Shown here: positions 19,716-48,639 of the stretch, in pieces
How the letters are laid out: each line of letters begins with the position of its first letter
Numbering within the stretch: position 1 is the first letter of the stretch
From: Actinomycetota bacterium
Lineage (GTDB): Bacteria > Actinomycetota > JAHEXW01 > JAGVPG01
DNA: 64,000 bases
Direction: 5' to 3'
Assembly (NCBI GenBank): GCA_020052375.1
Contig: JAGVPG010000034.1
Span: forward strand, 7,660 to 71,659
Program-made: the position numbers and the translations under genes
The notes under the pieces: model-generated
The model's database searches: none
Told to the model about the DNA's origin: nothing
The model's input: only the letters and a program-made list of their open reading frames with translations

Positions 19716-19763
19716 TCTTGTAGCAGCCGACCTTCAGGTCGGTCACATCTTGCCTCATATCTG

Positions 19764-20621
19764 CTAAGGAGTTGTATCTTCTATAATTACCGGTTGTGGA
19801 GGCGGGCTGGAAGGCATGGGCGGGTAGCGAGTTCTGGACGGGACTGTACCCGAGTAACCGCTGTTAGAACTAGAAGTACTCGATGACCCACTGCTAGAAC
19901 TGGTGATTACTAATGATTCGGTTGTGAAACTATTTACGCCGTCTGTCCAGCTGCCATCATCTGCCAAAGCTGTCCAGGTTATAGTGTAATCAGTTCCATA
20001 GCTAAGTTGCCCGAATGTGAAAGTGACTTGCTTTTTATCCGGACTCCACTGCGGTGCGCCAAGCGGAACCGGACTCATCATGATCATGTCTTTGAGTGGC
20101 TTATCAGAGGTATAAGTGATCTTGCCGACATCTATGCTAATCCCTTGAGAGCCATTCGGGATATCGGTCGTTATTTGGGGTGAAGTAGGTGTCCTGAACT
20201 CCACAATGAATGGTTTTTTCTCCAGCAAAGAATCGGGACATTCTCCAAGAAGTCCGCTATAGTCTTCTAGTTTAACCCTCATCGTCCGGCCTTGTGGCCA
20301 GTAGTTAAGGCGAGAAATATAGATAGTCCTTTTGTTTACTGACAAGCTGTATTTAAACGGTATTTCTATTTCCGCGTTCTTCTCATCGACGTAGCATGCT
20401 TTTAGGATCAGTTTATCCGGATCGAGGCAACAAGAGGTTTCGATCTCGACAGTAGTTGTGGCTTTTACGACCTTATTTTTTTCCGGCTGGAATTTAACAA
20501 CATACGCTAGCGCTGGTAGCGAGGTAGCTTGATTGTTGTTCAGCGCAATAAAAGTAATTATTACTGCCGGTAGTGCAATCACTAAAGCTACCGGCCAGAT
20601 CAATTTCGGATTATTAAACAT
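19764..20621 (-). CDS. Membrane-anchored secreted protein with a Ser/Pro-rich C-terminal tail, function unknown
   Basis: An N-terminal TM or signal (LIWPVALVIALPAVIITFIAL) and a C-terminal SSSGSSSTSSSNSGYSG...PPMPSSPPPQP low-complexity tail. Confidence 0.4.
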   Translation of the reverse strand: MFNNPKLIWPVALVIALPAVIITFIALNNNQATSLPALAYVVKFQPEKNKVVKATTTVEIETSCCLDPDKLILKACYVDEKNAEIEIPFKYSLSVNKRTIYISRLNYWPQGRTMRVKLEDYSGLLGECPDSLLEKKPFIVEFRTPTSPQITTDIPNGSQGISIDVGKITYTSDKPLKDMIMMSPVPLGAPQWSPDKKQVTFTFGQLSYGTDYTITWTALADDGSWTDGVNSFTTESLVITSSSSGSSSTSSSNSGYSGTVPSRTRYPPMPSSPPPQPVIIEDTTP

Positions 20622-20906
20622 TCAACCACCATCCGCTCATTATTTGTTATATCTTATGAAAACCACAAATATATGTCAACGCTCTATCGTAGAATCAGGA
20701 TTAATCCAGGTTAGCGAGTGTGGAATGTTCCCCGAATTGCAGTTTGCGAATCGCCAATTATTTTCTAATTGCCGACCTTCAGGTCGGCTGATCTCTGTAT
20801 GTAAAAAGACCAAATAAGTATTTTTTAAGTCATGAAATATGAGTTTGACCTATTTCAACTTAAACCTAAAACTTGAAATAAGAAACCGAAGTACTTACTA
20901 CCGCTA

Positions 20907-20966
20907 TATTCAAGACATCTTGAATACAAATGTGATTAGGCTTCCTTATTCAAGACATCTTGAATA
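20907..20966. promoter_or_regulatory. Two copies of the 20-bp inverted repeat TATTCAAGACATCTTGAATA, spaced 40 bp apart, upstream of the DUF169 gene
   Basis: Copies at 20907-20926 and 20947-20966. The arms TATTCAAGA/TCTTGAATA are perfect complements. Confidence 0.5.
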
Positions 20967-21010
20967 AGCCACCTGCTCCACTCTACTGCGCTCTATGCTA
21001 GACTTTTCCC

Positions 21011-21751
21011 ATGAAGAGCAATCTCGCACGTATGATTAAACTCAAGACATCGCCAGTCGTTGTTCTTTGGACCGATGAGAAACCGGCTGACGCGATCCAG
21101 TGCAAGGAAGGGAAATGGGCTTGCGTCATATCGTTCCTCGTCCAAGCCGCCAAGGGAAAAACGGTCGTATTCGATGAGAGGACGGTCACCTGCCGAGGAG
21201 GCAAGACTGGCTTAGGATTCGGCCGCTACGAGCCCGGCTCGATAGAATATTTCCTCTCAACAGGGGAAAAGGGCGAGGAAGGCGAGCGCTACTGGAAAAC
21301 TCCTGAACTCGCTAGGTCCTTCATCGAAAGCCTGCCCGAATTGAAAGTGCCCACAAAATACGTCGTCTTGAAACCTCTCGAGCAGCTTGAAGAAGGCGAG
21401 ACACCCAAAGCGGTCGTTTTCCTTGTAAACCCGGACCAGCTATCGGCTCTCATCACGCTATCCAACTACGACCGGCCTACAGGCGACAATGTGGTCCACT
21501 ACGCCGGCGCCGGCTGCCACAGCACGGTCCTGTTCCCGATCCTCGAAGCAGATTCCAATCAACCAAAAGCAATAATCGGCCTGACCGATATCTCCGCCCG
21601 CAAAGTCATCGACAAAGACATCCTCTCCTTCAGCGTCCCCTACAAACGCTTCCTCGAACTGGAATCAAACGCAGAAGACAGCTTCCTGAGGACAGATGAA
21701 TGGAAAAGCATAGCTAGGCGGTCTTCCTCCCCCTTGAAGGGGGAGGAATAA
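21011..21751 (+). CDS. DUF169-family protein (uncharacterised, COG2043-like)
   Basis: WTDEKPADAIQCKEGKWACVISFLVQAAKGKTVVFDERTVTCRGGKTGLGFG is a Cys pattern and GLGFG motif recalled from DUF169 proteins. The C-terminus reads into a family A repeat. Confidence 0.55.
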   Translation: MKSNLARMIKLKTSPVVVLWTDEKPADAIQCKEGKWACVISFLVQAAKGKTVVFDERTVTCRGGKTGLGFGRYEPGSIEYFLSTGEKGEEGERYWKTPELARSFIESLPELKVPTKYVVLKPLEQLEEGETPKAVVFLVNPDQLSALITLSNYDRPTGDNVVHYAGAGCHSTVLFPILEADSNQPKAIIGLTDISARKVIDKDILSFSVPYKRFLELESNAEDSFLRTDEWKSIARRSSSPLKGEE

Positions 21752-21779
21752 AGGTGGGGGTGGGTTTTCTTTCCGTTTC

Positions 21780-24209
21780 CTAACTCTTGTCTTTTATCTT
21801 AGAGAGGAACCTGTCAAATATTTTCTCAGACATCTGAAACCAGCTTCCGACTAATATCAGGTAGAAACCGGCGAAGCCGACGAATGGCGCAAGACGGAAC
21901 TGAACAGAAGAAACGTTGGTCAAATAGGCGATGGTAAGAAGTATTGCCGGCCCGACGATGACGCCGAACTGGTCAGCCCTTTCAGCCCACTTAGGATCTT
22001 TGACTGTGATCTTCGCTCTTCCTTTTCTGATCAATGATATGAACGGCAGAGCGGTCAGAAAGCCGCCTACAGTTATCGCGTAGAAGATCCACCAATTTTC
22101 GAATGGGAAGGGCCTGGGTTCGCTCATTCCCAGATGAACAAGCTCGGCGCCGTAGACGCCGATTATCAAGGCCTCCAGGAACTCCAAAGTAAACTGGGCC
22201 GAGCGCGAGCCCTCTTGGACCAGCAAGCTTGAATACTGTTGAACATTCTGACTCACGTGCATGCCAAGCATATCAAGACGCTCGACTTTATGAAGAAGGT
22301 TCCGGTAGAGGCTTTCCAGATGGAACACGTGATTGGTCTTCTCGATCAAATCGAAGAAGAGAGAACTGCCGCCCTTTCTGCTTAGCGGATCCTCGATAGT
22401 CTCCGCGAGAGCTATTTTACGATGGTCGATCCCCCTGGTGACATCGGCAAGTCCCTCGATCACTTCGGAAAACTCTTCTTCTAAGCTCTTCTCCTTGAGA
22501 ACCTCAAGCGCGGCTGAGATGCTCCTTATATCATGGGTCACTAAATGGTCTGAAGTGGCATACGCGTACCAGAGGATCCGCTGCCACTGAATGGTGTCAC
22601 TCAGTTCATCCAGATACTTATACACATTGGCCATCTCTGGTACGAGCCGCACCTCATTTGCGTTACCGGGTGCGTAGTATACACATAGCGCGCTTCTTAT
22701 GTGGACGGCCATATGGACGAGATCGGAATAAAAAACATTCTCGAGAGACCTGATAGCGGGCTCCCAGTCCGATCTGATTACTACCCATTTTGATTTCATG
22801 AGGACTCTGACAAGATCTTTCTTGTATCTCGCAAACGTGTTACTGAAGTGCTCAACGACTTGGTCTGGTGTTGAGGCCGAGTTCTTGAAGGGACTCGGAG
22901 CGCTTAATAATGTTGATACATAGGGGTGCTCCTCAATGCTTGGAGATAAGGATGGAAAGGTCAGGTTTGGTATTGTGCTCATCAGTTGTTCTTTAAGGAT
23001 GATCTCGCTGCGCTCCGGGCGTTTCCTTCGCTCGGGCCGGTTGACAAACCGGACTATGTCTTCATCCTGCAGCAATGCTTGACTTAGTTCCGCCAAAAAG
23101 ACGTCCCGGGTGATGTGCTGGAAATACTCAAACATGGAAGACGCTGAATCCCTCGATTCTTTCCAGAGAAGGCGCGGCATATGTTCGCGAGAGAAGCCAC
23201 GATCAAGGTTCTCGATGTCTACGATGTCGTCGACCGTTAGCTCTCCATTTATTAGTGTTACCTGGTCAACAGCGGTACGTAGACGGTTCCGGATGAGATC
23301 TTTTGTTTCAAGAGATGCGGGGTATTTCTCAAGCAAGGTATCGATGCCAACCATCGATCGCTTCTTTACCGCATCCAAAATCGCCTCTCGTAGCTCTTGG
23401 GCTAGTTTTGTTGTCTTATCGGCAGGAGACGGGATTGCCGCGCTCTTGAGTTCCATGGTTGTGAATATGATCTCGTCGACGAGCTCCTTTAGGCCCTGCT
23501 CATTGGCTAGACGAACTCCCAGTCGTACACAACCGAAGCCCGTAGCCAGTAGTCGAATAGTCGACGCAATACGGATTCCGGGTACGTCTCTAAACTCTGA
23601 ACTGGAAGGGAGCTTTGCACTTATATCGGGGAGTATACTTGGATTCTCTATGGCCAGGCTCGCAGCTTTAAATCTGGTCTCGATGTAAGGCTGTTTGCGC
23701 TCCAGATAACCGCGGGTGCCCTTGCTATGGCCGGAGTGATATTTGGCTTGTGTGAGAAGAGGGACCCGACTTTCGTTTATCTTTTTCGACACGAACTTCA
23801 TCATGTTCTCGGGAGCTTTGGCTTCGTGTTCCCGGATCAGTTCCGATAATTCGAGATAGAGAAGATCCTGTCCGACTTCGCGAAACTCATCAGAAGTGGC
23901 CGGTAGCTCTCTGACCAGCGCCCTGACCTCGCCTGCGAGACTCTGATTTGATCTGCGCCGATTCGGATTGCGACTAGTACCACTAATACACCGGTCCAGT
24001 ATCTCCTTTGCTTTTCTTACAGGAGGCGCTTCTGTACCGAAGGCGGATTCCAAGCGGTCTTGTGCGGCCAGGAGGGACGATTGCAGATCGTATTCTTGTT
24101 CGTTTAGGAAGCCGGTTATGCCGTGGCGAAACGTCTCCCATCGGTCGACTCTGAAAGGATAGAGGAACTGGATAGTCGCCTTGTTAGTGTAAAACTGCTC
24201 GTGCTGCAT
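21780..24209 (-). CDS. Large hypothetical protein (809 aa): a soluble alpha-rich N-terminal ~650 aa plus three C-terminal TM helices
   Basis: A long clean ORF with no motif I can assign. The C-terminus FPFENWWIFYAITVGGFLTALPFISLI...IVGPAILLTIAYL...FVGFAGFYLILVGSWF is hydrophobic. Confidence 0.5.
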   Translation of the reverse strand: MQHEQFYTNKATIQFLYPFRVDRWETFRHGITGFLNEQEYDLQSSLLAAQDRLESAFGTEAPPVRKAKEILDRCISGTSRNPNRRRSNQSLAGEVRALVRELPATSDEFREVGQDLLYLELSELIREHEAKAPENMMKFVSKKINESRVPLLTQAKYHSGHSKGTRGYLERKQPYIETRFKAASLAIENPSILPDISAKLPSSSEFRDVPGIRIASTIRLLATGFGCVRLGVRLANEQGLKELVDEIIFTTMELKSAAIPSPADKTTKLAQELREAILDAVKKRSMVGIDTLLEKYPASLETKDLIRNRLRTAVDQVTLINGELTVDDIVDIENLDRGFSREHMPRLLWKESRDSASSMFEYFQHITRDVFLAELSQALLQDEDIVRFVNRPERRKRPERSEIILKEQLMSTIPNLTFPSLSPSIEEHPYVSTLLSAPSPFKNSASTPDQVVEHFSNTFARYKKDLVRVLMKSKWVVIRSDWEPAIRSLENVFYSDLVHMAVHIRSALCVYYAPGNANEVRLVPEMANVYKYLDELSDTIQWQRILWYAYATSDHLVTHDIRSISAALEVLKEKSLEEEFSEVIEGLADVTRGIDHRKIALAETIEDPLSRKGGSSLFFDLIEKTNHVFHLESLYRNLLHKVERLDMLGMHVSQNVQQYSSLLVQEGSRSAQFTLEFLEALIIGVYGAELVHLGMSEPRPFPFENWWIFYAITVGGFLTALPFISLIRKGRAKITVKDPKWAERADQFGVIVGPAILLTIAYLTNVSSVQFRLAPFVGFAGFYLILVGSWFQMSEKIFDRFLSKIKDKS

Positions 24210-24287
24210 AATAGTCGTCCCGCCGAAATCATCTGCCTGAAAGTCAACCTAATATATTACTTTTGCACATGTGACGTCAATACGTGA

Positions 24288-24403
24288 TGTAGCAGCCGAC
24301 CTTCAGGTCGGCTCCCTAAAAGTGATGACTTTCAATAATATTCCCTCCCCCTTTAAGCCTGCCTGCCGGCAGGCAGGGGGGAGAATCAAAGAGGGGGTAG
24401 CAA
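24288..24403. repeat. Composite repeat unit: family B hairpin TGTAGCAGCCGACCTTCAGGTCGGC + CTCCCTAAAAGTGATGACTTTCAATAATATT + family A C/G palindrome
   Basis: Near-identical composite units occur at 26548-26640 and 26998-27089. Confidence 0.8.
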
Positions 24404-24456
24404 ACGCCAATAAGCATCTGCTGTGATATAATAAATGCAGATAAAAGAGGTATAAG

Positions 24457-24666
24457 ATGATAAAAAACACTAGTGTTTGGAACGATATTGAACGCGAACA
24501 GATGAGAATGAGAACCGTGGACTACGCCTCAAACCTAAGGATCTTCGAATCCTTATGGAAAGAAGCAATAGCACTCCGCGCCCTTCCGCTTTCCGACCCC
24601 CTAGCCGGGATAGAAACAGATATCCAAATGGCCAAGATCCTCAACTCATGTTCCAAGACATCCTAG
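24457..24666 (+). CDS. Small hypothetical protein (69 aa) overlapping the start of the downstream nucleotidyltransferase-fold gene
   Basis: An ORF with a 19-nt overlap onto the 24648 start. No recognisable motif. Confidence 0.3.
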   Translation: MIKNTSVWNDIEREQMRMRTVDYASNLRIFESLWKEAIALRALPLSDPLAGIETDIQMAKILNSCSKTS

Positions 24667-25202
24667 CTCGTCTTGCCGGCATTCTTAAAAAAGCAGATAT
24701 TCCCTATATCGTTATTGGAGGCCAGGCGGTATTACTGTATGGTGAACCGAGGCTGACTGCCGACATAGATATAACGGTAGGACTCGGGATCGATGAGTTA
24801 TCGCGCTTGCTGACTGCAGGGGAGGAAAGCGGTTTGGTTCCGCTAGTTTCCGATATTGAGGCGTTTACCAAAGAAACCATGGTCGTTCCGTTAAAAGACA
24901 AAACGACCGACATCCGGATCGACTTCGTGTTGTCATTCACTACATACGAGGCCGCTGCTATAAAGAGGGCTCGAAAAGTAAAGATAGGTGGCATGGAGGT
25001 CAACTTTGCTTCACCCGAAGATGTTGTAATTCATAAGATATTCGCAGGACGTCCGAGAGACATAGAAGACTTACGCGGGATCTTGCTTAAACAAAAAGAT
25101 ATAGATGTCGGCTACATTGAGACTTCGCTCAAGGAGTTCGATCTCACATTCCCCGATAAGAGATTCTCGAAGACATTCAAAGATCTCATCAGCGAGCTAT
25201 AG
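24648..25202 (+). CDS. Nucleotidyltransferase-fold protein (minimal NTase-like; possible toxin/antitoxin-type component)
   Basis: IVIGGQAVLLYGEPRLTADIDITV fits the G[GS]-x9-13-D-x-[DE] pol-beta NTase motif. The start is called at ATG 24648; the track ORF begins at 24555 with a low-complexity leader. Confidence 0.5.
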   Translation: MFQDILARLAGILKKADIPYIVIGGQAVLLYGEPRLTADIDITVGLGIDELSRLLTAGEESGLVPLVSDIEAFTKETMVVPLKDKTTDIRIDFVLSFTTYEAAAIKRARKVKIGGMEVNFASPEDVVIHKIFAGRPRDIEDLRGILLKQKDIDVGYIETSLKEFDLTFPDKRFSKTFKDLISEL

Positions 25203-25403
25203 AAACAGGTCATTCAGGGGCACCGAAGAATCCACCAAGAAGAGAGTGCTCCATCGCACAATATATTAGTTTTCCTCCCCCTTCAAGGGGGAGAATCAAA
25301 GAGGGGGTGGCTCTCCTCACTTTGTAACCATATCTTAACGATACTGTAACCTTGCCTTAACGGTACTGGTCGATGATGTTATCGTTAAGAAAAGGAGGAC
25401 GAT

Positions 25404-26552
25404 ATGAATATGCGTATTCATAAAACCCACGGCATTCTGCTCGGATGTGTATTCATCTTCTCGGTGCTGATCGGTTCCGGTTGCAGGTCGGACGTATCAA
25501 ATACAAGTCAGAATAAAGTGTCCACGAAATCAGAAACGGCTAATCCTAAAGATTTAAAACTTCAGAAGAAAGTGACGTTTAAGAACGGCGCCAGGCCGGA
25601 AGTCGCGGCGACGGGAGACAGGGTCTTTGTGGTATATCTGGACCCGTCCACACCGGATAGAACGTTCAATGTGAAGATCTACAACAAAGACATGACGCAG
25701 GAACGCACCACGAAAGTCATCGTTCCGACCGATCAGGAATATGGCAGCCCCACGGATATCCGGATCGTGAAAGACGGAAAATACCTTTTCACGTTCTACG
25801 AGACCGTGAAAGGTATGACGACCTTTTTGTTCGGGGCCAAATACTCGCTGGACGATGGTTTCGCCAGAGTCGCGTATACGGGACCGATTGCGCAAAGCAT
25901 GATGTTCAAGGTCACCAAGGCAGGGGATGAGAAACTGGATGACCCGGCGCCGATGGTCACGGGAGATCACGTATATGTGATGACACGATATAAAACATCA
26001 CTGGCCAAAGAAGGGGAAACAAAATATAAGATCCGCCAGTTCGATAAAGAACTGCAACCGGTTTCGGAGTTCGAACTGGACCTATCCGACTATATGGATG
26101 GTGAAGTAAGGCAGTCCAGCCTCATATACGTAAACGGCTACTTCTACATAGTTGGCCCGACTACCACGACTGGTACCGGCAATATCGTCGAGACCGTCGA
26201 ATGGACCGCCCCTTCGGATATCATGCTGATCAAACTGGACAAAGACTGGAAAGTCCGGGAAACAAAAGTCGTCGCCAACGAGGACGGATACACGGAAGGA
26301 TACGTCACAGGGCTTGTCCGGGACGGCAAGTATTTCTACATGACATATAACCGCGTCATCCTAGGGCAGGAATTCTCATCGATGATCAGGATCTTTGATA
26401 AGGACTGGAACCTGGTCAAACAAGAAAAAGTTGAAACCGGAGCCGGCGACCTAAGACCTTCCATCTTCGTGACTGATGACAAGCTCTACACCGGCAACGC
26501 CAACAAACAGTCATTAACCGCCGAGATCCTTGTTTATTATAAGGGTTTGTAG
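25404..26552 (+). CDS. Lipoprotein, function unknown (382 aa)
   Basis: A signal peptide with lipobox LIGSGC is present. The TAG stop lies inside the family B repeat (GTTTGTAGCAGCCGACC). Confidence 0.5.
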   Translation: MNMRIHKTHGILLGCVFIFSVLIGSGCRSDVSNTSQNKVSTKSETANPKDLKLQKKVTFKNGARPEVAATGDRVFVVYLDPSTPDRTFNVKIYNKDMTQERTTKVIVPTDQEYGSPTDIRIVKDGKYLFTFYETVKGMTTFLFGAKYSLDDGFARVAYTGPIAQSMMFKVTKAGDEKLDDPAPMVTGDHVYVMTRYKTSLAKEGETKYKIRQFDKELQPVSEFELDLSDYMDGEVRQSSLIYVNGYFYIVGPTTTTGTGNIVETVEWTAPSDIMLIKLDKDWKVRETKVVANEDGYTEGYVTGLVRDGKYFYMTYNRVILGQEFSSMIRIFDKDWNLVKQEKVETGAGDLRPSIFVTDDKLYTGNANKQSLTAEILVYYKGL

Positions 26553-26852
26553 CAGCCGACCTTCAGGTCGGCTCCCTAAAAGTGATGACTTTCAATAATA
26601 TTTTCTCCCCCTTCAAGGGGGAGAATCAAAGAGGGGGTGGCAAACACCGCAAACGTGCAGCTCAAAGGTGTCATCCTGAGGAAGGTCGCCGAAGGCGACC
26701 GACGAAGGACCTAAGAGAAAGCTTACGTGTCCGAATCAACCCAAGTTAAAGAGAATGTAGCGTTCCTTCGAATTACGGCTTGCCAAGTGCTTTCTTATAG
26801 CTGACTTGCTAAGTGTTACAAAACTGACATTTCTAGACCTGACCCCAAAATC

Positions 26853-27001
26853 ACTGGAACCTGATCAAACAAGAAAAAGCAGAAACCGGAGCCGGCGACC
26901 TAAGACCCTCTATTTTCGTAACAGACGACAAGCTCTACGCCGGCAACGCCAACAAACAGTCATTAACCGCCGAGATCCTCGTATATAACAAGATTTTGTA
27001 G
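26853..27001 (+). pseudogene. Diverged duplicate of the last ~50 codons of the 25404-26552 lipoprotein gene (gene fragment)
   Basis: Translation HWNLIKQEKAETGAGDLRPSIFVTDDKLYAGNANKQSLTAEILVYNKIL* matches DWNLVKQEKVETGAGDLRPSIFVTDDKLYTGNANKQSLTAEILVYYKGL*. The same composite repeat follows it. Confidence 0.6.
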
Positions 27002-27194
27002 CCGCCGACCTTCAGGTCGGCTCCCTAAAAGTGATGACTTTCAATAATATTTTCTCCCCCTTCAAGGGGGAGAATCAAAGAGGGGGTGGCAAATCCCCAT
27101 AACCACTAATAACCGCTTGCGAATAGCAAATTGCCTTGTATTCTGACCTGCCAAGTGTTACAGAACTGATAATTCAAGAAGTGACCTTGTTACT

Positions 27195-28988: not shown

Positions 28989-29305
28989 ATCTCATTTCCA
29001 ATATTTCTTTACTGATTGATAAATCTACAGCTCATAGAGTCTGTAGAGTATTTACGCAGACTAGACTCACTATACTATGAAAATGTGATGAGGATTAGTT
29101 TGAAAGGCAACATAAAGGTCCCAGGAAAGGTTCTTTAAGATCGCCAAGGCATAGACAGCTGCTCATAACTAACTGTTAGGAGCAGCTTTTTCATTTATAA
29201 TCCCTTCATATGCTGTTCAAATCCACCCTTCCCATATACGTCATCATAAATTATTGGTATAGTCGAGAAAATAAAGATTTGTAAGAGCGTCTGCTATTTC
29301 TATTA

Positions 29306-32578: not shown

Positions 32579-32775
32579 AGACCAAATACTTCTCATGCCC
32601 CTATTTGCGAAGTTCTGCACTCAAAATCTCAATATCAGCATCAGTAAGATTGTCTACGAAGCATTCAAGTCTTACGTCTGATACTCTGCAAATCATATCG
32701 TCGTCGAGGACTCTAGAAATAAAATTTCTCCGGTTTTGAATGGATTGGTTTTGGGGTGAATGTCTCCCGTATATA

Positions 32776-34230: not shown

Positions 34231-34560
34231 TGCGGATTTTTATCTGTATGCAAGCGTACTAGTCAATGCTCAAAATATCATAAAGGTCTGCAACTGTAAA
34301 TTGTAAGGATATAACGCAACTGACAAGAATCAATCTACATAGATGTTATCTGTATAATTATACTGCCAGTTAAGATAAACCATTGACGACACCGTATAGG
34401 AAACGCGGTTGACAGCCTCTCTATGTAATGATTCAATGAGGCAAAATAGGAAAACAGCACATTGTGAAAAGTATAGCAATAATATATGAGAATAAAGCAT
34501 TAAACAAATAATAATTTAAAGAATAACTTTCAAATGTATGACTGACAAGGGGGTTGGGAC

Positions 34561-37554: not shown

Positions 37555-37605
37555 AATCAAGTGATTATAGAAAACACATAGTTTAACAATCAGTGGGGGC
37601 GACTA

Positions 37606-38775: not shown

Positions 38776-39053
38776 AGTCTAAGATTAAGTCTCGAAATCC
38801 TTGGTTTATAAATCATCCTTGATAGAAAAGCAATGAGATATTTGTTATTGTACTAGTTCACATCAATTTATAGAGCCTCGTGGGCACATTTCCAATCCCA
38901 ATCTGATCCTTCCAGTTCTTGAACATGCTCTACAAGATACTTTGAAACATATTTATCCGGTTTGATGATTGTCGATAGAATCGGGTAGTGTTCCTCGAGC
39001 AGCAGGCGTATAAGTGGTTCATGTTCGGTATTAAAAAGGATAACGTACAATAT

Positions 39054-40390: not shown

Positions 40391-41047
40391 GATTCTTGAC
40401 ACTACCTTAAAAAGATCGCGATCTATCAGTTTTTTCTTCGTTGCATATAAGACTGAATTGCAGTAGGAAATAAGAAGCTCTACATAACCATAGTATATAG
40501 CCCAAGCCTTATCTTCTTTGGTCTTCTGATCGTAAATAAGTGTGAAACAGTTCGAATTCCACTGCTTGGCGAGCGTTAAGACTTCCGGATACTGCATTCT
40601 ATAATCAACCATCTTGTCATATCGCGCTATTATCTCTTGTTGCATCAGGTTTCTTTGCGACTGTTTGTTCTGGCGAAGTTGTAACCAGGCGATTGTGAGA
40701 GAGACAATAGCAGATACAGAAGCTGCGACAAGTGCCGTGATTATCTGGTTCTTCATTATTCTTCCTCATTTTAGGCGTTGATGTGATTATATAGTCTGAA
40801 CAAACAGAGGGTTGAAAGTCAAGATTCTAGATCTTAACATCCGCTTTGCTCCATTTTGACTGTTTTCCGTGTTCGAGATACTTCCATACGTCAATTAATG
40901 GAAGCGACCATATGATGTGACCTGCGGTGCTTCCATACTCTAGTGTATTGGTGCGTGGAAGTGGGGAGGGAAAGCCGACCTGAAGGTCGGCGGCTACAAG
41001 ATCCTACTGATTGCGGCTTGCGAATCGCTTCTTGCTTCTGGCTCTTT

Positions 41048-41083
41048 CTGTTCACTGTTCATTGTTCACAGTTCACTAATCGC
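41048..41083. repeat. Four direct 7-bp repeats TGTTCAC TGTTCAT TGTTCAC AGTTCAC (family E) upstream of the DUF3795 gene
   Basis: A second copy lies at 44624-44660 and a degenerate inverted copy at 47262-47320, upstream of the minus-strand gene that starts at 47244. Confidence 0.6.
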
Positions 41084-41103
41084 TCCAGTGCTATAATCCT
41101 CCT

Positions 41104-41676
41104 ATGGATGCTCAATACGTTGAAATCGGAGTTTGTGGGCTTTCGTGCAGGTTGTGTCCTGCTTACATAAGGACGACCAAGAGCCGGTGTCCCGGATGTA
41201 AGACCGAATTCCGGTTTGGTGGACCCTGCAAGATGCTTCACTGCAAGCAGCTTAAAGAGCAGGGGATCGAGTTCTGCTGGGATTGCGGTGTTAGCGATAG
41301 CTGTGAGATATGGGCCAAGCATCGCGAAATGGGCAAACAATACGATTCTCCCAAGTGCTACCAGACTTTGGAGAAAGACATAGCTTTTGCTCAAGAACAC
41401 AGAGTCAGGGAGTTCGAGAAGACTCAAAAAGCCCGCGAGAAACTGCTCCGGACTATGATCGACGAGTTCAATGAGGGAAGGTCTAAAAGCTATTTCTGCA
41501 TAGCGGCGACTGTAATGAATATTGACGAGTTGGAGCAGGCGATAAAGAAGGCGAGAACAGATGTCAAGGATGTCAAAGATGTCGAGGATGTCAAGGAGAA
41601 GGCTAAGATTATGCATATGATCCTGGATGAGATAGCGGAAGAGAAAGGATATCTGCTGAAGTTGAGGAAGAGATAA
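41104..41676 (+). CDS. DUF3795-family cysteine-rich protein
   Basis: CGLSCRLCPAY...CPGCK...CKMLHC...CWDCGVSDSCEIW is the DUF3795 Cys pattern. A tandem GCAAGA repeat follows the stop. Confidence 0.55.
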   Translation: MDAQYVEIGVCGLSCRLCPAYIRTTKSRCPGCKTEFRFGGPCKMLHCKQLKEQGIEFCWDCGVSDSCEIWAKHREMGKQYDSPKCYQTLEKDIAFAQEHRVREFEKTQKAREKLLRTMIDEFNEGRSKSYFCIAATVMNIDELEQAIKKARTDVKDVKDVEDVKEKAKIMHMILDEIAEEKGYLLKLRKR

Positions 41677-41900
41677 TAGCAGCAAGAAGCAAGAAGCAAG
41701 AAGCAAAAAACGAGCCGTAATCCGGGGAACATTCTATTCATCACAGGATGCCAATGAATTTAGATTAAACAAAGACAATTAACTTCCGTTGTATGGTGGT
41801 AATTATCGTTGATTATTGCAAGAATATACTTAAATCTGGTATAAACGTAGAACGTAAGAATAATAAAACGACATTGAAAGGCAACTGATAGGCATATCAT

Positions 41901-42917: not shown

Positions 42918-42947
42918 TAGAGAGCGGAGAAACCTATCGATCAGAGG

Positions 42948-43634
42948 ATGGAATACCCGTTAGCTTTCGATTATCTCTTTAAGGATCCGCACTGGAAGAG
43001 AAAGTATTTCTTTGCTTGTTTTCTGCTTGTTTTAAGCCCTCTGATATTTCCATTATTCTATCTCAATGGATATATAGTAAGAGTGATCAGAGAGGTGCGC
43101 GACGGGCGCAGGCTCGGTCTCCCGGCGTGGAACAAGACAGACGAGCTGCTAGTCGACGGCTTTCGTTACGTTGTCCTATCCTTCTGCTGGTACTTGCCGT
43201 TGATCCTCGCATACCTGACGATGTACATCCTGATATTTGTCTTGATCGCCCGAGAGCCGAACCAGGATTTAGCTACATTCGAGCTTTCCATAATGATTAT
43301 GGCCATTCCTATCGGAATGCTTATAAGTCTTTTTTTTATGCTCGTATCCGGCTTGTTACCGGGAGCGCAGATGGTCTTCGCGAATACAGACTCGCTTGCG
43401 CAAAGTCTTTCGCCTATCCGTACCGTTAAGGCCATATGGGTCGACGCTCTACACTACGCTCCTATACCGTTTATCAGGTATCTTCTGAACATGGTGGCAA
43501 TGCAACTGGGAGTGATATCCTTTTACATCTTACTACCGCCCGCGCTCGTGTACGCAATGTTCGTGAACGCAAATATAAAAGGTCAGACATTGAACGTGTT
43601 AAACAATAATAGTCCAAAAAGGACGCGAATATGA
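42948..43634 (+). CDS. DUF4013-family membrane protein
   Basis: N-terminal YPLAFDYLFKDPHWKRKYFF...VIREVRDGR plus 5-6 TM helices, recalled as the DUF4013 pattern. Confidence 0.5.
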   Translation: MEYPLAFDYLFKDPHWKRKYFFACFLLVLSPLIFPLFYLNGYIVRVIREVRDGRRLGLPAWNKTDELLVDGFRYVVLSFCWYLPLILAYLTMYILIFVLIAREPNQDLATFELSIMIMAIPIGMLISLFFMLVSGLLPGAQMVFANTDSLAQSLSPIRTVKAIWVDALHYAPIPFIRYLLNMVAMQLGVISFYILLPPALVYAMFVNANIKGQTLNVLNNNSPKRTRI

Positions 43635-43650
43635 AAGGGGAAGAGGCGGC

Positions 43651-44364
43651 TTGAGCGATAAAGACATGGTCTACGGCTATAACTGGAGGGAAGCTATCAC
43701 ATATATAATAAAGGACCCGAAGTGGATCTCGACAGTGTTTTTTCTGGGCCTTTGCATGTTGCTGTGGTGGTTGTTATTCCCCGTGTTCGTGTTCAGGGGA
43801 TATATTATCAGGACTATCCGCCATGTCGCTGACGGAAACATAAGCCTGCCTTCTCTTTCCAATTCCGGTGAGATGGTTGAGAAGGGATTCAAGATGTTCT
43901 TGGTTGATCTCGCTTATATGTGGCCCGGGTACCTCCTAACGTTTATTTCCATGATCTTTTCATTTGGCTTCATTGCTTTGATTGCAAGTTCGGAACCGAG
44001 CGCACTAGCTATTATGCTTGTCATGTTTGGTTCGCTTCTACAGATGATCGGCTCCTTACTGCTCATAGTGATCATACCGTTTACATGGACTGCTCTTTTA
44101 TGGTTCACCGCGACCAATAGCATGAAAGCTTGTTTCAGGCCAAAGCTGATGTGGCAATTCTTTAAGAAGTACTTCAAAGACTTTGTCATCATTTATGTGA
44201 TCAATATTGCTGTCGGTTATATCGCGTCATTGGGTATGTTCTTGTTCTTCATAGGTTATGCATTCACGCTAGCCTACGCTACGCTTGTGAGCGCTTACCT
44301 GTACGGCAAGCTTCTAGAGAAATCGCGCACGGACATACCGCCTGTTCAAAGCTTGGCTTCCTAA
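43651..44364 (+). CDS. DUF4013-family membrane protein (tandem paralog)
   Basis: WREAITYIIKDPKWISTVFF...IIRTIRHVADGN parallels the upstream ORF. Confidence 0.5.
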   Translation: MSDKDMVYGYNWREAITYIIKDPKWISTVFFLGLCMLLWWLLFPVFVFRGYIIRTIRHVADGNISLPSLSNSGEMVEKGFKMFLVDLAYMWPGYLLTFISMIFSFGFIALIASSEPSALAIMLVMFGSLLQMIGSLLLIVIIPFTWTALLWFTATNSMKACFRPKLMWQFFKKYFKDFVIIYVINIAVGYIASLGMFLFFIGYAFTLAYATLVSAYLYGKLLEKSRTDIPPVQSLAS

Positions 44365-44539
44365 CATGGGCTAAGATATGGGATCAGATAGAATGATGCA
44401 TTAAGATTTGGGAAAGGGGTATATTAATGGCAGGGGTCATCTATGAAAAAACACCCTCTATCAAGTAGATCACAACCAATTGCCCCACCTTACTGCTTTT
44501 TCGTAGGTCCTTAGTTGGTCGCCTAAAGACGACCTCTCA

Positions 44540-44612
44540 CGGTTACACCTTTTATGCATGTTTACGTAGTTTGCTTCGTCAGCCGCCCTTCGGGCGGCTT
44601 CCTCGCAACGAC
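44540..44612. repeat. Family C repeat (inverted orientation, with GCCGCCCTTCGGGCGGC hairpin), followed by the family E heptamer array at 44624-44660
   Basis: Reverse complement ...GTGTCGTTGCGAGGAAGCCGCCCGAAGGGCGGCTGACGAAGCAAACTACGTAAACATG matches the copies at 16691 and 47505. Confidence 0.7.
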
Positions 44613-44684
44613 ACTTTTTTACCCTGTTCACTGTTCATTGTTCACCGTTCACTAATTGCGGAAGAGAGGAAGCGCGGAACCGGT

Positions 44685-44864
44685 TTATGCTTCTTTGTTC
44701 CTTTGCATGAGATTTTCGAGATTCATAAGAGCGATAAAAGCGATGCCGAGTAAAATAAGACCACTATCGTAGTCTTGTTGAAGAAGATTCCATATTCCAG
44801 GCCCTGCAAGCATAACGATACCAATGCCTAGAACAACAAGAATAACCGGATTGGTCCTTTTCAT
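44685..44864 (-). CDS. Small two-TM membrane protein (59 aa)
   Basis: ATG at 44864 is preceded by a GGGAGG RBS; MKRTNPVILVVLGIGIVMLAGPGIW... The longer track ORF to 44993 lacks an RBS. Confidence 0.4.
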   Translation of the reverse strand: MKRTNPVILVVLGIGIVMLAGPGIWNLLQQDYDSGLILLGIAFIALMNLENLMQRNKEA

Positions 44865-45048
44865 GTATGCCTCCCTTTTTCCTAGATAGTATTGATAATC
44901 AACTGATGTTGTCAAATACGACAATGAAATAGGTGGGGAAGGAAAATGAGGTATTGGATTGACAAGATGGTTGTTAAGGCATAGAATACTCAACGTATTG
45001 AGATAATTAACTCAATACGTTGAGTATATTGTTAAAAGGGGTGTTTAC

Positions 45049-46242
45049 GTGCGCGATCTGTATGTTCGATCGGTCAATAATATTATAAAAAAGAGGCTCC
45101 AAGAGCCTCGTAGATTCATCCAGGTTCTATACGGTCCGAGACAAGTAGGAAAGACTACCGCTATTCTTCAGGTGCTTGAGGGGATCAGGATAGCGCATTC
45201 ATATGCTTCCGCCGACAAACCACTCCTGCAAGATGTCGACTGGGTACAAGATGAATGGCAAAAAGCTCGCGGTCTATTAGCGAAGAATAAACAAGCTGTT
45301 CTTGTGCTCGATGAGATCCAAAAAGTGCCGGAATGGTCGGAAGTAGTGAAACGGCTATGGGATGAAGATACAAGACAAGGCAGACTACTTCATGTTGTAT
45401 TGCTTGGTTCGTCTCCGTTTCTCATCCAAAAGGGTTTAACGGAGAGTTTGGCCGGCCGTTTTGAGGTCATACGCATTCCGCATTGGTCGTTTGTCGAGTG
45501 CCGGGACTATTTCGGTTGGGACGCAGATGTTTATATTTATTATGGCGGGTATCCGGGTGCTGCGCCTCTAATAGAGGACCGCTCACGCTGGGTCAGGTAT
45601 ATAGAGGATGCTTTAATCGAGACGACCGTATCGCGGGACATCTTGCTGTTGACGCGCATCGATAAACCGGCGTTGTTAAGGCGCTTATTCTATCTGGCTT
45701 GCCTGTACTCCGGACAGATTGTGACATATGAGAGTATGCTCGGGCAGCTTCACGAAAAAGGAAACACGACAACCCTAGCACACTATCTAGATCTCCTAGA
45801 CGGTGTCGGTTTTGTGAGAGGTCTTCAAAAATACTCTGGTTCGATAATCCGCCAACGCGCTTCCAGCCCCAAATTGCAGGTCTATAACAACGCTTTGATG
45901 ACTTCTCAATCCGATACAAGCTTTGATGAAGCGCGAGAGGACAAACCGTACTGGGGGAGGCTTGTTGAATCAGCAGTTGGAGCACATCTTCTAAGGGGTG
46001 TTATGGAACACAGATTCGAACTTTTTTATTGGCGCGAGAAGAGCAACGAGGTCGATTTTGTTATCCGTCATAGAAAAGGGGTAACGGCGGTTGAAGTTAA
46101 AACAGGATCGAGTGAACGTGCTCGACGCGGTTTCTCGGCATTCAGCCGGAACTATAAGGCAGATAAAATGATTATTATAGGACCGGAAGGTATACCGGTC
46201 GAAGACTTCCTCTTGGCCGAACCGGACGCTTTTATGAGCTAG
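45049..46242 (+). CDS. AAA-superfamily ATPase with DUF4143 C-terminal domain (COG1373-like)
   Basis: Walker A GPRQVGKTT and Walker B VLVLDEIQ are present. The C-terminal ...WREKSNEVDFVI... region is DUF4143-like. The stop TAG is embedded in a family B repeat. Confidence 0.7.
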   Translation: MRDLYVRSVNNIIKKRLQEPRRFIQVLYGPRQVGKTTAILQVLEGIRIAHSYASADKPLLQDVDWVQDEWQKARGLLAKNKQAVLVLDEIQKVPEWSEVVKRLWDEDTRQGRLLHVVLLGSSPFLIQKGLTESLAGRFEVIRIPHWSFVECRDYFGWDADVYIYYGGYPGAAPLIEDRSRWVRYIEDALIETTVSRDILLLTRIDKPALLRRLFYLACLYSGQIVTYESMLGQLHEKGNTTTLAHYLDLLDGVGFVRGLQKYSGSIIRQRASSPKLQVYNNALMTSQSDTSFDEAREDKPYWGRLVESAVGAHLLRGVMEHRFELFYWREKSNEVDFVIRHRKGVTAVEVKTGSSERARRGFSAFSRNYKADKMIIIGPEGIPVEDFLLAEPDAFMS

Positions 46243-46483
46243 CCGACCTAAAGGTCGGCGGCTACATTTAGTCTACCTAACCCCCTCCCTGGATCCCTCC
46301 CCCTTTGAAATGGGGAGGGAAACGTTTCATTCTCTTTTACCTTTCTAAACAATGTGCATTGTGCGAGGAGTAGGCGAGAGTATGGCATTATACATACTGT
46401 CTCTGGGCTAGGTTGAAGAATTCTTCGAGCGAGATATCTTTAGCGAGAAGATTTACTTCAACCTAGTCCAGGTACACACTTTT
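46243..46483. repeat. Mosaic repeat block: family B hairpin (46246) + family A C/G palindrome (46281) + family D 90-bp element (46390-46483, GGTTGAAGAATTCTTCGAGCG...TTCAACCTAG)
   Basis: The same three modules recur at 47345-47530 on the other side of gene 46552-47244. Confidence 0.75.
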
Positions 46484-46551
46484 CATGTCTTTCGCTGACT
46501 GAGAGCAATCACTTTTAAAGGGAGGCCGACCTGAAGGTCGGCGGCTACGTG

Positions 46552-47244
46552 TTAGATGTTGCGTTGGACGGCGAGCCATTCCTGGCGGATCTCGTCCCGG
46601 AGCCGGCGGTACTCGGCGGCCTTTACGTTCCTGGCCGCGTTGTTCTCATCCAGTTCCTTATCCTCTTCCATGTTCTCGGTTTTGAATTCGTCTGTAGTTA
46701 TTGAGCCGTTGGCCGCATTCCTATAGGTTGTGATGAACTTCCTATCTATGTCGATGCTGGTCTGAAGCAGGGTCCTAAAATCGTTTTCAACGGCATTTCC
46801 CTCGGCTGCTTTGACGGCTAGGTTTGCGGATGATGACTTGAGCGACACGGGCTCGACTTTTGCCGACTCGGATGCCAGTCTCATCACCAGGCCGTTCTCC
46901 TGCATTACAGCGGTGTTTATCTCGTCGACCAATGACTGTTGCTTGTCGACGTTGGCCTCGACATCGTCGATCGCTTTTAAGACCTCGGTGTTGTCGCCGG
47001 CATTGGCGGCGGCCTCCATCTTGTCCACCAGCGTGTTCCGCTCTTGTTCGAGGGTCGAGAATTCGTCGAGCTTTGTGTTGACCTTGTTAGCTGCAGCTAT
47101 GTATTGATTGTAGACGTCCTTGAATCCAAGAGCCGACTGCCTCTGCTGGTTTCGCCTGTTGAGCAGATAGACCGCCCCTGCCAGGCAGCAGGCAAGCAAG
47201 ACAACAACAAGGATGACTGCGATTATGACCAGTATCTTTTTCAT
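46552..47244 (-). CDS. Membrane-anchored coiled-coil protein, function unknown (230 aa)
   Basis: An N-terminal TM (ILVIIAVILVVVLLACCLAGAVYLL) followed by an alpha-helical, Ala/Glu/Asn-rich periplasmic region. The mosaic repeat blocks flank it on both sides. Confidence 0.4.
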   Translation of the reverse strand: MKKILVIIAVILVVVLLACCLAGAVYLLNRRNQQRQSALGFKDVYNQYIAAANKVNTKLDEFSTLEQERNTLVDKMEAAANAGDNTEVLKAIDDVEANVDKQQSLVDEINTAVMQENGLVMRLASESAKVEPVSLKSSSANLAVKAAEGNAVENDFRTLLQTSIDIDRKFITTYRNAANGSITTDEFKTENMEEDKELDENNAARNVKAAEYRRLRDEIRQEWLAVQRNI

Positions 47245-47344
47245 GGCACTCCTTTGTTAGTGAATTAGTGAATGTTGAATTTATTATAGTGTAAAATCGG
47301 TGAACAGTGAATAAAGGGAATAAAGTTAATAAGAGCGGAGAGCG

Positions 47345-47590
47345 GGAAGAACCAACCCCCACCCTTGATCCCTCCCCCTTAGAAAAGGGGAGGGAAACAC
47401 AGAGGAAAGCCGACCTGAAGGTCGGCTGCTACACTATACATACTGTGTTCGGGGAGGTTGAAGAATTCTTCGAGCGGGTATCTTTAGCGAGAAGATTTAC
47501 TTTAACCTAGTCCGGACACTCACTTTTTTACGTTTGCATAGTTTGCTTCGTCGCGCTGGCGGACATTGCTCCTCGCAACGACACGAGGGT
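47345..47590. repeat. Mosaic repeat block: family A (47354) + family B (47405) + family D (47436-47530) + family C inverted copy (47505-47587)
   Basis: Matches the modules at 46243-46483 and 16691-16752. It marks the right edge of the accessory island, immediately upstream of hemB. Confidence 0.75.
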
Positions 47591-48622: not shown

Positions 48623-48639
48623 ATTCTGCGCCATTGCGG

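What the first reader, a model, noticed from the sequence alone, without database searches (positions are those of the whole stretch)
19720..47432. Family B hairpin repeat GTAGCAGCCGACCTTCAGGTCGGC positioned exactly at gene ends and supplying the stop codon
Nine copies (19720, 20770, 24289, 26549, 26999, 40975, 46246, 46529, 47405) contain the 18-bp perfect palindrome GCCGACCTGAAGGTCGGC flanked by GTAG/CTAC. In at least three genes (25404-26552, 45049-46242, and the fragment ending at ~27001) the TAG stop is the TAG inside GTAGC of the repeat. The others follow stops within a few nt. That is, coding sequences terminate inside a mobile-looking hairpin, as REP/BIME or Correia-like elements do, but with a precise stop-codon relationship.
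Basis: seen in the sequence. Interest (0 to 1): 0.5.

Follow-up and report, generated by a model that had tools for sequence, protein, structure and literature searches.

The report
GTAG-tagged REP hairpin repeats at gene ends
The repeat is an ordinary REP element, a short mobile DNA hairpin with a fixed GTAG head that is copied around the genome by a dedicated tyrosine transposase (RAYT). Its occasional use as a gene's TAG stop codon is a by-product already described for this class.

Summary
The repeat is real. The window holds nine hairpin copies and a tenth, truncated copy; none is expected by chance. The conserved unit is 26 nt: T-GTAGC-[A/C]-GCCGACC-TTCA-GGTCGGC-T. That is a GTAG head, a 7-8 bp perfect stem and an asymmetric 4-nt loop, which is the anatomy of a GTAG-type REP.

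Contigs of a closely related strain from one metagenome carry 17 more copies. They also carry a 163-aa REP-associated tyrosine transposase (NCBIfam NF047646, 113.6 bits against a cut-off of 80; best solved structure E. coli TnpA_REP, 4ER8). Two inverted copies of this same REP flank it, forming a REPtron. The window has no RAYT.

The stop-codon claim is only partly right:
- One independent gene (25404-26552), plus its 449-bp tandem duplicate, ends on the TAG inside GTAG.
- Gene 45049-46242 ends on a different TAG, made of TA plus the first G of the hairpin, at the other end of the element.
- Two genes stop 3-4 nt upstream of GTAG.
- Four copies are not next to any gene end. Three of these lie between divergent genes.

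Closeness to stops is still enriched (p about 4e-4). Di Nocera et al. 2013 already reported that GTAG REP termini often provide the TAG stop codon to flanking ORFs. This is a new member of a known kind, of low interest.

The parts
16766..16779 (+). Truncated tenth REP copy: TGTAGCC plus the left arm GCCGACC only. It is preceded by AAAAGTGAGTGCTCCAACGCACA, the same motif found 5' of the REP upstream of the RAYT gene in L122 and of the REP in L129.
19719..19744 (+). REP copy (T-GTAGCA-hairpin, G-T at the stem base) between convergent genes. It lies 4 nt after the TGA of ORF 19341-19715 and 20 nt from the stop of ORF 19764-20621 (-).
20771..20788 (+). Hairpin copy lacking the GTAG head (CTAATT instead), between divergent genes.
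24288..24313 (+). REP copy between divergent genes (orf809 on the minus strand, nucleotidyltransferase on the plus strand), followed by motif C and a family A hairpin. It is orthologous to the copy in related-strain contig L134 (95% identity).
26548..26573 (+). REP copy whose TGTAG supplies the last two nt of the final Leu codon (TTG) and the TAG stop of gene 25404-26552.
26997..27022 (+). REP copy in the second unit of the tandem duplication. Its TAG closes a 52-codon pseudo-fragment of the same gene.
40973..40998 (-). REP copy in a 751-nt spacer, 621 nt after the IS256/Mutator-type transposase gene and 106 nt before the DUF3795 gene. It is not at a gene end.
46241..46266 (-). REP copy (loop variant TTTA). 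On the opposite strand, TA plus the first G of the hairpin form the TAG stop of the AAA_14/DUF4143 ATPase gene 45049-46242.
46524..46549 (-). REP copy (CGTAGCC head) 3 nt after the TAA stop of ORF 46552-47244 (-).
47408..47433 (-). REP copy between divergent genes (orf230 on the minus strand, hemB on the plus strand), next to a family A hairpin.
25404..26552 (+). Conserved 382-aa protein of unknown function. Its C-terminus aligns within about 2 residues of the ends of most aligned homologues that lack this REP context, so the REP abuts the native end and does not truncate the gene.
45049..46242 (+). AAA_14/DUF4143 ATPase gene whose TAG stop overlaps the hairpin end of REP 46241-46266.
46552..47244 (-). 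230-aa ORF, a real but rare protein family: five matches at E up to 0.001 besides itself, four of them of similar length and aligned nearly end to end. It ends 3 nt before a REP.
26404..27093 (+). Tandem duplication with a 449-nt period and 93% identity. It carries the last ~49 codons of the gene, the REP, motif C and a family A hairpin.

Best explanation
These are GTAG-type repetitive extragenic palindromes (REPs).

**What the element is.** It is a 26-nt non-autonomous unit: T-GTAGC-[A/C]-GCCGACC-TTCA-GGTCGGC-T.

**How it spreads.** A REP-associated tyrosine transposase (RAYT / TnpA_REP, an HUH Y1 enzyme related to IS200/IS605 transposases) encoded elsewhere in the genome recognises the element as a single-stranded DNA hairpin. 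It binds the hairpin and its loop, and uses the 5' GTAG as recognition and guide sequence for cleavage and strand transfer.

**Why copies sit at gene ends.** Copies persist where they do little harm, mostly just downstream of genes. They therefore pile up within a few nt of stop codons.

**Why it sometimes provides the stop.** The head contains TAG. The complementary strand has TGA in the loop. The hairpin also starts with G, so a preceding TA makes TAG. A copy that lands on or against the last codons of a gene can therefore take over as its stop codon in one reading frame.

[quoted passage not shown] By the E. coli precedent this may protect the mRNA 3' end and slow terminating ribosomes.

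**Shown here:** repeat anatomy, copy distribution, the RAYT with flanking inverted REPs in a related strain, and the stop-codon overlaps.

**Inferred:** mobilisation by that RAYT, the cleavage site, and any RNA-level effect.
For: **Anatomy**
- Across 27 copies (window plus related-strain contigs), GTAG is invariant in 26. The flanking T, the stem, the TTCA loop and the 3' T are near-invariant.
- Sequence beyond these 26 nt is not conserved.
- The strand-specific loop and one-sided head fit recognition of a folded single strand rather than a duplex operator. The DNA hairpin is -8 to -10 kcal/mol, z about -3 to -5.

**Cognate enzyme**
- Contigs L122 and L135 come from the metagenome that also holds 88-97% identical relatives of the window.
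- They encode a 163-aa protein that hits NCBIfam NF047646 'REP-associated tyrosine transposase' (113.6 bits, cut-off 80) and Pfam Y1_Tnp. Its best solved structure is 4ER8, TnpA_REP.
- It carries the HUH motif (DHLH) and the YIIDNP tyrosine motif.
- It is flanked by two inverted copies of exactly this REP.

**Same hairpin elsewhere**
These are mostly in Acidobacteriota MAGs, with some in Actinomycetota, Eremiobacterota, Chloroflexota and others.
- One Vicinamibacterales locus (L092) has a RAYT 41% identical to the L122 enzyme, flanked by REPs with this hairpin.

**Literature**
- GTAG and the loop are required for TnpA_REP cleavage. Some REP classes (called group 3) are short perfect palindromes set 0-2 nt from GTAG (PMC8266576).
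- REPs less than 16 nt from a stop codon down-regulate translation in E. coli (Liang et al. 2015, as cited in PMC12306157).
Against: - No RAYT gene or remnant is in the window. The link to L122/L135 rests on an identical REP sequence and on co-occurrence with near-identical relatives in one metagenome, not on a shared contig.
- The genome-wide copy number is unknown. All window copies sit in one ~31-kb accessory block.
- Copies are singletons, not the inverted doublets (REPINs/BIMEs) typical of many REP families.
- No clean empty site was found between strains, so mobility is inferred rather than seen.
- No transcript or activity data are available.
Confidence: 0.9

Rival explanations
1. The hairpins are intrinsic (Rho-independent) transcription terminators that look repeated only because terminators share a GC-rich stem.
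For: - GC-rich 7-8 bp stem with a 4-nt loop, stable as RNA.
- Four window copies lie within 10 nt of a stop codon, and several sit between convergent genes.
Against: - No U-tract follows the stem, and the terminator scan of 19-28 kb flags none of the copies.
- Three copies lie between divergent genes.
- A related-strain copy sits 3 nt after the stop of rplF (ribosomal protein L6) and about 15 nt before a putative next start codon. If that is the usual ribosomal-protein operon, read-through would be needed.
- Terminators do not need an invariant one-sided GTAGC head or an invariant loop.
- The element flanks a RAYT in inverted pairs.
Confidence: 0.03
2. The element has been selected as a stop-codon and translation-termination module. 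Its stops (TAG in the head, TGA in the complementary loop) and its hairpin just after the stop exist to control termination of the upstream gene, and mobility is secondary.
For: - Stops are significantly close to the element.
- Three different stop contexts were seen: the TAG of GTAG at 26550; TA plus G at 46240 and at the RAYT gene itself in L122; and the TGA of the loop at the L092 RAYT.
- E. coli REPs less than 16 nt from a stop reduce translation.
Against: - Only 1 of about 25 independent copies clearly uses the GTAG TAG for a long ORF, and 2 use the junction TAG.
- Four of nine window copies are not at gene ends.
- GTAG is explained by transposase recognition.
- TAG is already a common stop here (18 of 53 genes), so no special supply is needed.
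Confidence: 0.05
3. The repeat is a duplex-DNA binding site (operator, uptake signal or recombination site such as an integron attC) rather than a REP.
For: - It is a short inverted repeat in intergenic DNA.
- Copies are concentrated in an accessory gene block that contains a transposase.
Against: - The asymmetric conserved loop and one-sided head are not what a dimeric duplex binder needs.
- No integron integrase or attC-type core sites are in the window.
- A RAYT flanked by the element was found.
Confidence: 0.02

Closest known systems
GTAG-tagged REP super-family (Di Nocera, De Gregorio & Rocco 2013, BMC Genomics 14:522)
   Same: - Unpaired GTAG at one end of a short GC-rich stem-loop.
- Dispersed, mostly extragenic copies close to ORF 3' ends.
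- Termini sometimes provide the TAG stop.
- RAYT genes flanked or overlapped by REPs.
   Different: - The consensus (GTAGC-M-GCCGACC-TTCA-GGTCGGC) does not appear in that paper's main text; its figures and supplementary files were not examined.
- The host is an uncultured lineage whose nearest named CcmF relatives are Actinomycetota MAGs at 52% identity or less. That paper reports GTAG REPs in Proteobacteria, Cyanobacteria, Chloroflexi and the PVC superphylum.
- Copies here are singletons rather than dimers.
REPtrons with short perfect-palindrome REPs (group 3: Stenotrophomonas maltophilia, Marinomonas sp. MWYL1; Corneloup et al. 2021, NAR 49:6982)
   Same: - Short perfect stem (5-8 bp), small loop with sequence-specific importance, GTAG 0-2 nt from the stem.
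- A CT dinucleotide is available at the 3' foot (GGC-T here).
- The RAYT has HUH, WQ and YxxxNP motifs.
   Different: - Different stem and loop sequence.
- RAYT group membership was not determined by phylogeny.
- No biochemical data exist for this element.
E. coli REP/BIME and TnpA_REP (PDB 4ER8)
   Same: - GTAG head, hairpin and stop-proximal location.
- The RAYT homologue aligns across the catalytic core.
   Different: - E. coli REPs are imperfect palindromes with a required bulge, arranged in BIMEs of alternating orientation. Here the stems are perfect and no BIME arrangement is seen.
Correia elements / MITEs
   Same: Small, repeated, intergenic, and able to overlap gene ends.
   Different: MITEs are 100-160 bp or longer, with terminal inverted repeats and target-site duplications, and are moved by DDE transposases. 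None of this applies to a 26-nt GTAG hairpin.

Membership tests
GTAG-type REP | Conserved unpaired GTAG tetranucleotide at the 5' foot of the palindrome | tested here: met
   GTAG is present in 26 of 27 aligned copies and 8 of 9 full window copies. It is followed by C-[A/C] and then the stem.
GTAG-type REP | Short (20-40 nt) GC-rich stem-loop able to fold as a single strand | tested here: met
   7-8 bp perfect stem with a 4-nt loop. DNA -7.9 to -10.1 kcal/mol (z -3.1 to -5.5). RNA -15 to -18.5 kcal/mol.
GTAG-type REP | Many dispersed, mostly extragenic copies per genome | tested here: inconclusive
   Ten copies in 64 kb, all extragenic or overlapping only a stop codon, plus 17 copies on 15 short contigs of a related strain. 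The whole-genome count is not obtainable because the source genome was not retrievable.
GTAG-type REP | Preferential location close to ORF 3' ends (between unidirectional or convergent genes) | tested here: met
   Enrichment p = 4e-4 in the window. Five of nine full copies lie between convergent genes, but three lie between divergent genes.
REPtron (RAYT plus REPs) | A RAYT (Y1 HUH transposase of the REP-associated family) flanked by the same REPs in inverted orientation | tested here: met
   Met in related-strain contigs L122 and L135: NF047646 113.6 bits against a cut-off of 80; REPs at L122 1110-1133 (+) and 1648-1671 (-). Not met inside the window: no RAYT there.
REPtron (RAYT plus REPs) | HUH motif and catalytic tyrosine (YxxxNP) in the enzyme | tested here: met
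   MPDHLHLLI and GRYIIDNPV. These align with the LPEHMHC and DYIYINPV segments of 4ER8.
REPtron (RAYT plus REPs) | The enzyme binds and cleaves the single-stranded REP in a GTAG-dependent way | not testable with these tools
   Needs purified protein and oligonucleotide assays as in PMC8266576.
BIME / REPIN | REPs paired in alternating (inverted) orientation at short regular spacing, forming a larger hairpin | tested here: not met
   All window copies are singletons. The nearest neighbours (46242 and 46525) are 283 nt apart in the same orientation. Inverted pairs are seen only around the RAYT gene.
Intrinsic terminator | GC-rich hairpin followed directly by a U-tract, at the ends of transcription units | tested here: not met
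   No copy is reported by the terminator scan. The downstream sequence is TCCC, TTAG or similar. Copies occur in divergent promoter regions, and one lies 3 nt after the rplF stop in a related strain.
MITE / Correia-like element | Terminal inverted repeats, target-site duplication, length about 100 bp or more | tested here: not met
   Conservation ends at the 26-nt unit, and no duplicated flank is seen.

The most novel reading that the evidence does not exclude
This REP/RAYT pair is a distinct, currently active lineage in an uncultured, possibly deep-branching Actinomycetota-related bacterium. It shares an identical 18-nt hairpin with GTAG REPs of Acidobacteriota, Eremiobacterota, Chloroflexota and other phyla because whole REPtrons have moved between phyla. 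The hairpin is kept unchanged while the RAYTs have diverged to 41% identity. [quoted passage not shown]
Probability: 0.2. Interest if true: 0.35.

Novelty: new member of a known kind. Interest (0 to 1): 0.2.

Why it matters
It matters little beyond annotation.
- It adds a REP family and its RAYT from an uncultured lineage in which REPs had not been catalogued.
- It shows that one hairpin sequence is shared by GTAG REPs across several phyla, which fits the patchy, horizontally spread distribution already proposed for RAYTs (PMC6006769).
- For genome annotation: stop codons embedded in REPs, duplicated gene-end fragments and mosaic intergenic repeats here are by-products of REP biology and should not be read as new regulatory devices.

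Tried and rejected
1. **RAYT in the window.** A motif regex, phmmer with two RAYTs, and tblastn with the L122 RAYT gave only chance hits with E above 0.8. Pfam scans of the ORFs flanked by copies (24555-25202, 46552-47244, 41059-41706) found a nucleotidyltransferase or nothing, not a Y1 transposase.
2. **Retrieving the source genome.** Exact-protein look-ups failed four times. Cluster membership only shows a 76,942-nt contig held by NCBI and JGI. Taxonomy therefore rests on CcmF similarity alone.
3. **Testing 'TAG of GTAG is the stop' on the 75 GTAG-tagged copies from other phyla.** Thirteen close an open frame of at least 100 codons, but 51 equally long open frames run through the element in the other two frames. 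In these high-GC genomes, ORF length is not evidence of a gene, so the test was dropped.
4. **Looking for an empty site between strains to define insertion boundaries.** L121 and L131 diverge from the window exactly at repeat clusters, but the flanks beyond are unrelated. No clean filled/empty pair was found.
5. **Rfam.** No family matches the repeats; the only match is to tmRNA at the tRNA-Ala gene.
6. **Other GTAG-hairpin classes in the window.** None was found beyond this family.
7. **Terminator, MITE/Correia, attC and operator readings.** Considered and rejected (see rival explanations and membership test).
Full report
**1. The observation**

A search for GCCGACCTGAAGGTCGGC with up to 2 mismatches finds nine sites in the window and none in 100 shuffles. 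Hairpins start at 19726, 20771, 24295, 26555 and 27004 in one orientation, and at 40974, 46242, 46525 and 47409 in the other.

The 18-mer is not a true palindrome. Two 7-nt complementary arms enclose a 4-nt loop that reads TTCA on one strand and TGAA on the other, so each copy has an orientation.

Eight of the nine copies carry TGTAGC[A/C] on the TTCA-strand 5' side. Copy 20771 has CTAATT instead. A generic scan for 'GTAG plus perfect hairpin' finds no second class in the window.

**2. Boundaries of the unit**

A metagenome scan with the 25-mer returned 15 short contigs, all from one JGI metagenome (Ga0214473). Where they overlap the window they are 88-97% identical to it, so they come from a related strain population.

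Together with the window this gives 27 copies. Aligned in one orientation, the conserved unit is W-T-GTAGC-M-GCCGACC-TTCA-GGTCGGC-T. GTAG is present in 26 of 27 copies, the preceding T in 26 of 27, and the 3' T in 25 of 27. Nothing is conserved beyond that.

The unit folds as single-stranded DNA at -7.9 to -10.1 kcal/mol (z -3.1 to -5.5) and as RNA at -15 to -18.5 kcal/mol.

**3. Relation to genes**

Window context:

| Copy | Context |
|---|---|
| 26555 | Its TGTAG supplies the TG of the last Leu codon and the TAG stop of gene 25404-26552 |
| 27004 | Same arrangement, inside a 449-nt-period tandem duplication (93% identity) of the gene's last ~49 codons plus REP and neighbouring repeats; the 52-codon frame is a pseudo-fragment |
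| 46242 | The TAG stop of the AAA_14/DUF4143 ATPase gene 45049-46242 is TA plus the first G of the hairpin. This is at the end of the element opposite the GTAG head, on the other strand, not 'the TAG inside GTAGC' |
| 19726 | 4 nt after the TGA of ORF 19341-19715, and 20 nt from the stop of the convergent ORF 19764-20621 |
| 46525 | 3 nt after the TAA of ORF 46552-47244. That ORF is a real but rare protein: five matches at E up to 0.001 besides itself, four of similar length aligned nearly end to end |
| 20771, 24295, 47409 | Between divergently transcribed genes |
| 40974 | 621 nt after a transposase gene and 106 nt before the next gene |

So 'exactly at gene ends' holds for five of the nine full copies, which is four of eight independent copies.

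Closeness is nevertheless non-random. A co-oriented stop starting at -6 to +2 relative to the G of GTAG occurs at 3 of 8 independent window copies. Random intergenic placement gives 2.0% (p = 4e-4). With the related-strain copies it is 5 of 25 (p = 1e-4).

In the related strain the upstream genes include ribosomal protein L6 (stop 3 nt before TGTAG), a protoporphyrinogen-oxidase-like gene and a leuC-like gene (gene identities read from the translated sequences). The element is therefore not restricted to accessory DNA.

Homologues of the 382-aa protein mostly end within about 2 residues of its C-terminus. The REP abuts the ancestral end and does not truncate or extend the gene.

TAG is a common stop here (18 of 53 genes).

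**4. What it is**

A GTAG head followed by a short perfect GC-rich hairpin is the signature of GTAG-type REPs, the substrates of REP-associated tyrosine transposases.

The window has no such gene. Related-strain contig L122, and an ENA contig L135 with the identical gene next to a multihaem cytochrome gene, encode a 163-aa protein with these properties:
- It hits NCBIfam NF047646 'REP-associated tyrosine transposase' at 113.6 bits (cut-off 80) and Pfam Y1_Tnp at 6.9e-15.
- Its best solved relative is E. coli TnpA_REP (4ER8, 3e-8).
- It has the HUH (DHLH), WQ and YIIDNP motifs.

Its gene is bracketed by two inverted copies of exactly this REP:
- Upstream: ...TTA-TGTAGCC-GCCGACCTTTAGGTCGGC-T, 23 nt before the ATG.
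- Downstream: the TAG stop is TA plus the first G of GCCGACCTGAAGGTCGGC-GGCTACA.

This is the same junction as at window gene 45049-46242. The arrangement is a canonical REPtron.

**5. The same hairpin elsewhere**

Of the 128 matches in the loci returned, 75 have GTAG 1-3 nt upstream, against roughly 1% expected.

These are mostly in Acidobacteriota MAGs (Vicinamibacterales, Terriglobia). Others are in Actinomycetota classes, Eremiobacterota, Chloroflexota, WOR-3 and Coatesbacteria.

In Vicinamibacterales locus L092, a Y1_Tnp protein 41% identical to the L122 RAYT is flanked by these REPs. Its TGA stop is the TGA of the REP loop.

The element therefore offers stops in three ways: TAG in the head, TGA in the loop of the complementary strand, and TA plus G at the foot.

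**6. Mechanism**

Shown: anatomy, distribution, the REPtron, and the stop overlaps.

Inferred from established RAYT biochemistry (PMC8266576):
- The RAYT binds the folded single strand.
- GTAG and loop bases are needed for cleavage.
- Cleavage is at a CT (or CA) dinucleotide 5' or 3' of the hairpin. The conserved GGC-T foot provides one.
- The REP class with short perfect stems set 0-2 nt from GTAG (group 3) resembles this one.

Copies survive where insertion is harmless, hence just past stop codons. An insertion on the last codons can replace the stop.

Four window genes have the hairpin base 0-10 nt after the stop. In E. coli, REPs less than 16 nt from a stop reduce translation of the upstream gene, and nearly half of E. 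coli REPs are positioned so that ribosomes could stall just before the stop (Liang, Rudd & Deutscher 2015, as summarised in PMC12306157). A similar effect here is possible but untested.

A terminator role is unlikely. There is no U-tract, no copy is flagged by the terminator scan, and copies occur in divergent promoter regions. One related-strain copy lies 3 nt after the rplF stop.

**7. Comparison with what is known**

Di Nocera et al. 2013 (PMC3733652) defined the GTAG REP super-family. They reported:
- location less than 20 bp from ORF 3' ends;
- REPs overlapping RAYT gene ends;

Modestly new points:
- The specific consensus does not appear in that paper's main text; its figures and supplementary files were not examined.
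- The host is an uncultured lineage whose closest named CcmF homologues are Actinomycetota MAGs at 52% identity or less. That paper lists GTAG REPs only in Proteobacteria, Cyanobacteria, Chloroflexi and the PVC superphylum.
- The identical hairpin is shared across phyla. This agrees with the horizontal-transfer-and-loss picture proposed for tnpA_REP genes (PMC6006769).

The element fails the tests for BIME/REPIN doublets, intrinsic terminators and MITE/Correia elements.

**8. Verdict**

The repeat is real and far beyond chance. It is a GTAG-type REP family with an identified cognate RAYT in a sister strain. The stop-codon sharing is real for a minority of copies and is a known by-product.

- Novelty: new member of a known kind.
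- Interest: 0.2.
- Confidence in the REP/RAYT explanation: 0.9.

Noticed in passing
window 12800-16661 and 47651-51113, with 16662-47650 between: A haem-biosynthesis cluster is split. hemA, hemC and cobA/hemD are followed by tRNA-Ala(CGC) on the minus strand, and hemB, a radical SAM/SPASM gene and hemL lie on the far side. Between them is a ~31-kb lower-GC block (0.39-0.49 against 0.52-0.55) of accessory genes: Fic, an AbiEii-like nucleotidyltransferase, a SIR2-like gene, a methyltransferase-TPR protein, adhesin-like proteins, an IS256/Mutator transposase and a DUF4143 ATPase. All REP copies of the window lie in this block. It looks like an inserted island, but no att-type repeat was sought.
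   Followed up: partly
window 1891-1986, 4771-4866, 5323-5385, 21723-21763, 24361-24401, 25271-25311, 26601-26641, 27050-27090, 46279-46323, 47354-47398, 49694-49784: A second interspersed hairpin family ('family A'): inner stem CCTCCCCC/GGGGGAGG, outer arms ACCCCCNCC/GGAGGGGGT, and sometimes a TGCCTGCCGGCAGGCAGG palindrome in the loop. It has no GTAG tag and occurs in both core and accessory regions, often next to the REPs. Three copies carry an AAGGAG Shine-Dalgarno-like motif just upstream of gene starts (1993, 5383). Its nature is unknown and it has no Rfam match.
   Followed up: partly
window 24318-24336, 26578-26596, 27027-27045, 46498-46516 (-); 16734-16756, 17973-17995: A third short motif, AAAAGTGATGACTTTCAAT, sits between the REP and family A. 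The order is REP-C-A in the window and C-A-REP in related contig L131. A related motif, AAAAGTGAGTGCTGCAACGCACA, precedes the REP upstream of the RAYT gene in L122 and the REP in L129, and also precedes the truncated REP at 16766. The intergenic regions are mosaics of several repeat families.
   Followed up: partly
window 16695-16726, 16790-16822, about 26680-26720: A fourth repeat type, of the 'GTCGTTGCGAGG...GAAGCGACCGAAGCAA' / 'GTCATCCTGAGGAAGG...CGACGAAGGAC' kind. Similar strings occur in related contigs L126 and L131, and a GTCATCCTGAGCGAAGCGAAGGATC string occurs in Acidobacteriota locus L029. Function unknown.
   Followed up: no
window 26404-27093: A 449-nt-period tandem duplication (93% identity) of the last ~49 codons of gene 25404-26552 together with the REP, motif C and family A. 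It leaves an in-frame 52-codon pseudo-fragment that also ends on the REP's TAG.
   Followed up: yes
L127 3700-3800; L128 about 2100; L123 about 15: In the related strain, REP copies follow core genes. One is 3 nt after the stop of a ribosomal protein L6 (rplF) gene, with a putative next start about 15 nt beyond the hairpin. Others follow a protoporphyrinogen-oxidase-like gene and a leuC-like gene.
   Followed up: partly
L121 about 1046 against window 47397; L131 about 179 against window 44926: Homology between the window and related-strain contigs breaks exactly at clusters of REP and family A repeats, with unrelated sequence beyond. The repeat clusters mark rearrangement or variable-segment boundaries between strains.
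   Followed up: partly
window 52906-58190: Several multihaem c-type cytochrome genes with repeated CxxCH-coding segments (repeat family D5). Together with ccmB/ccmC/ccmF-type cytochrome maturation genes at 7.6-12.8 kb and a NapC/NirT-type cytochrome at 6547-7131, they suggest an organism invested in extracellular or respiratory electron transfer.
   Followed up: no
window 9672-10375: A 704-nt stretch with no ORF of 100 aa or more, between ccmF and ccmB in an otherwise tightly packed operon. It may hold small ccm genes or something else; not examined.
   Followed up: no
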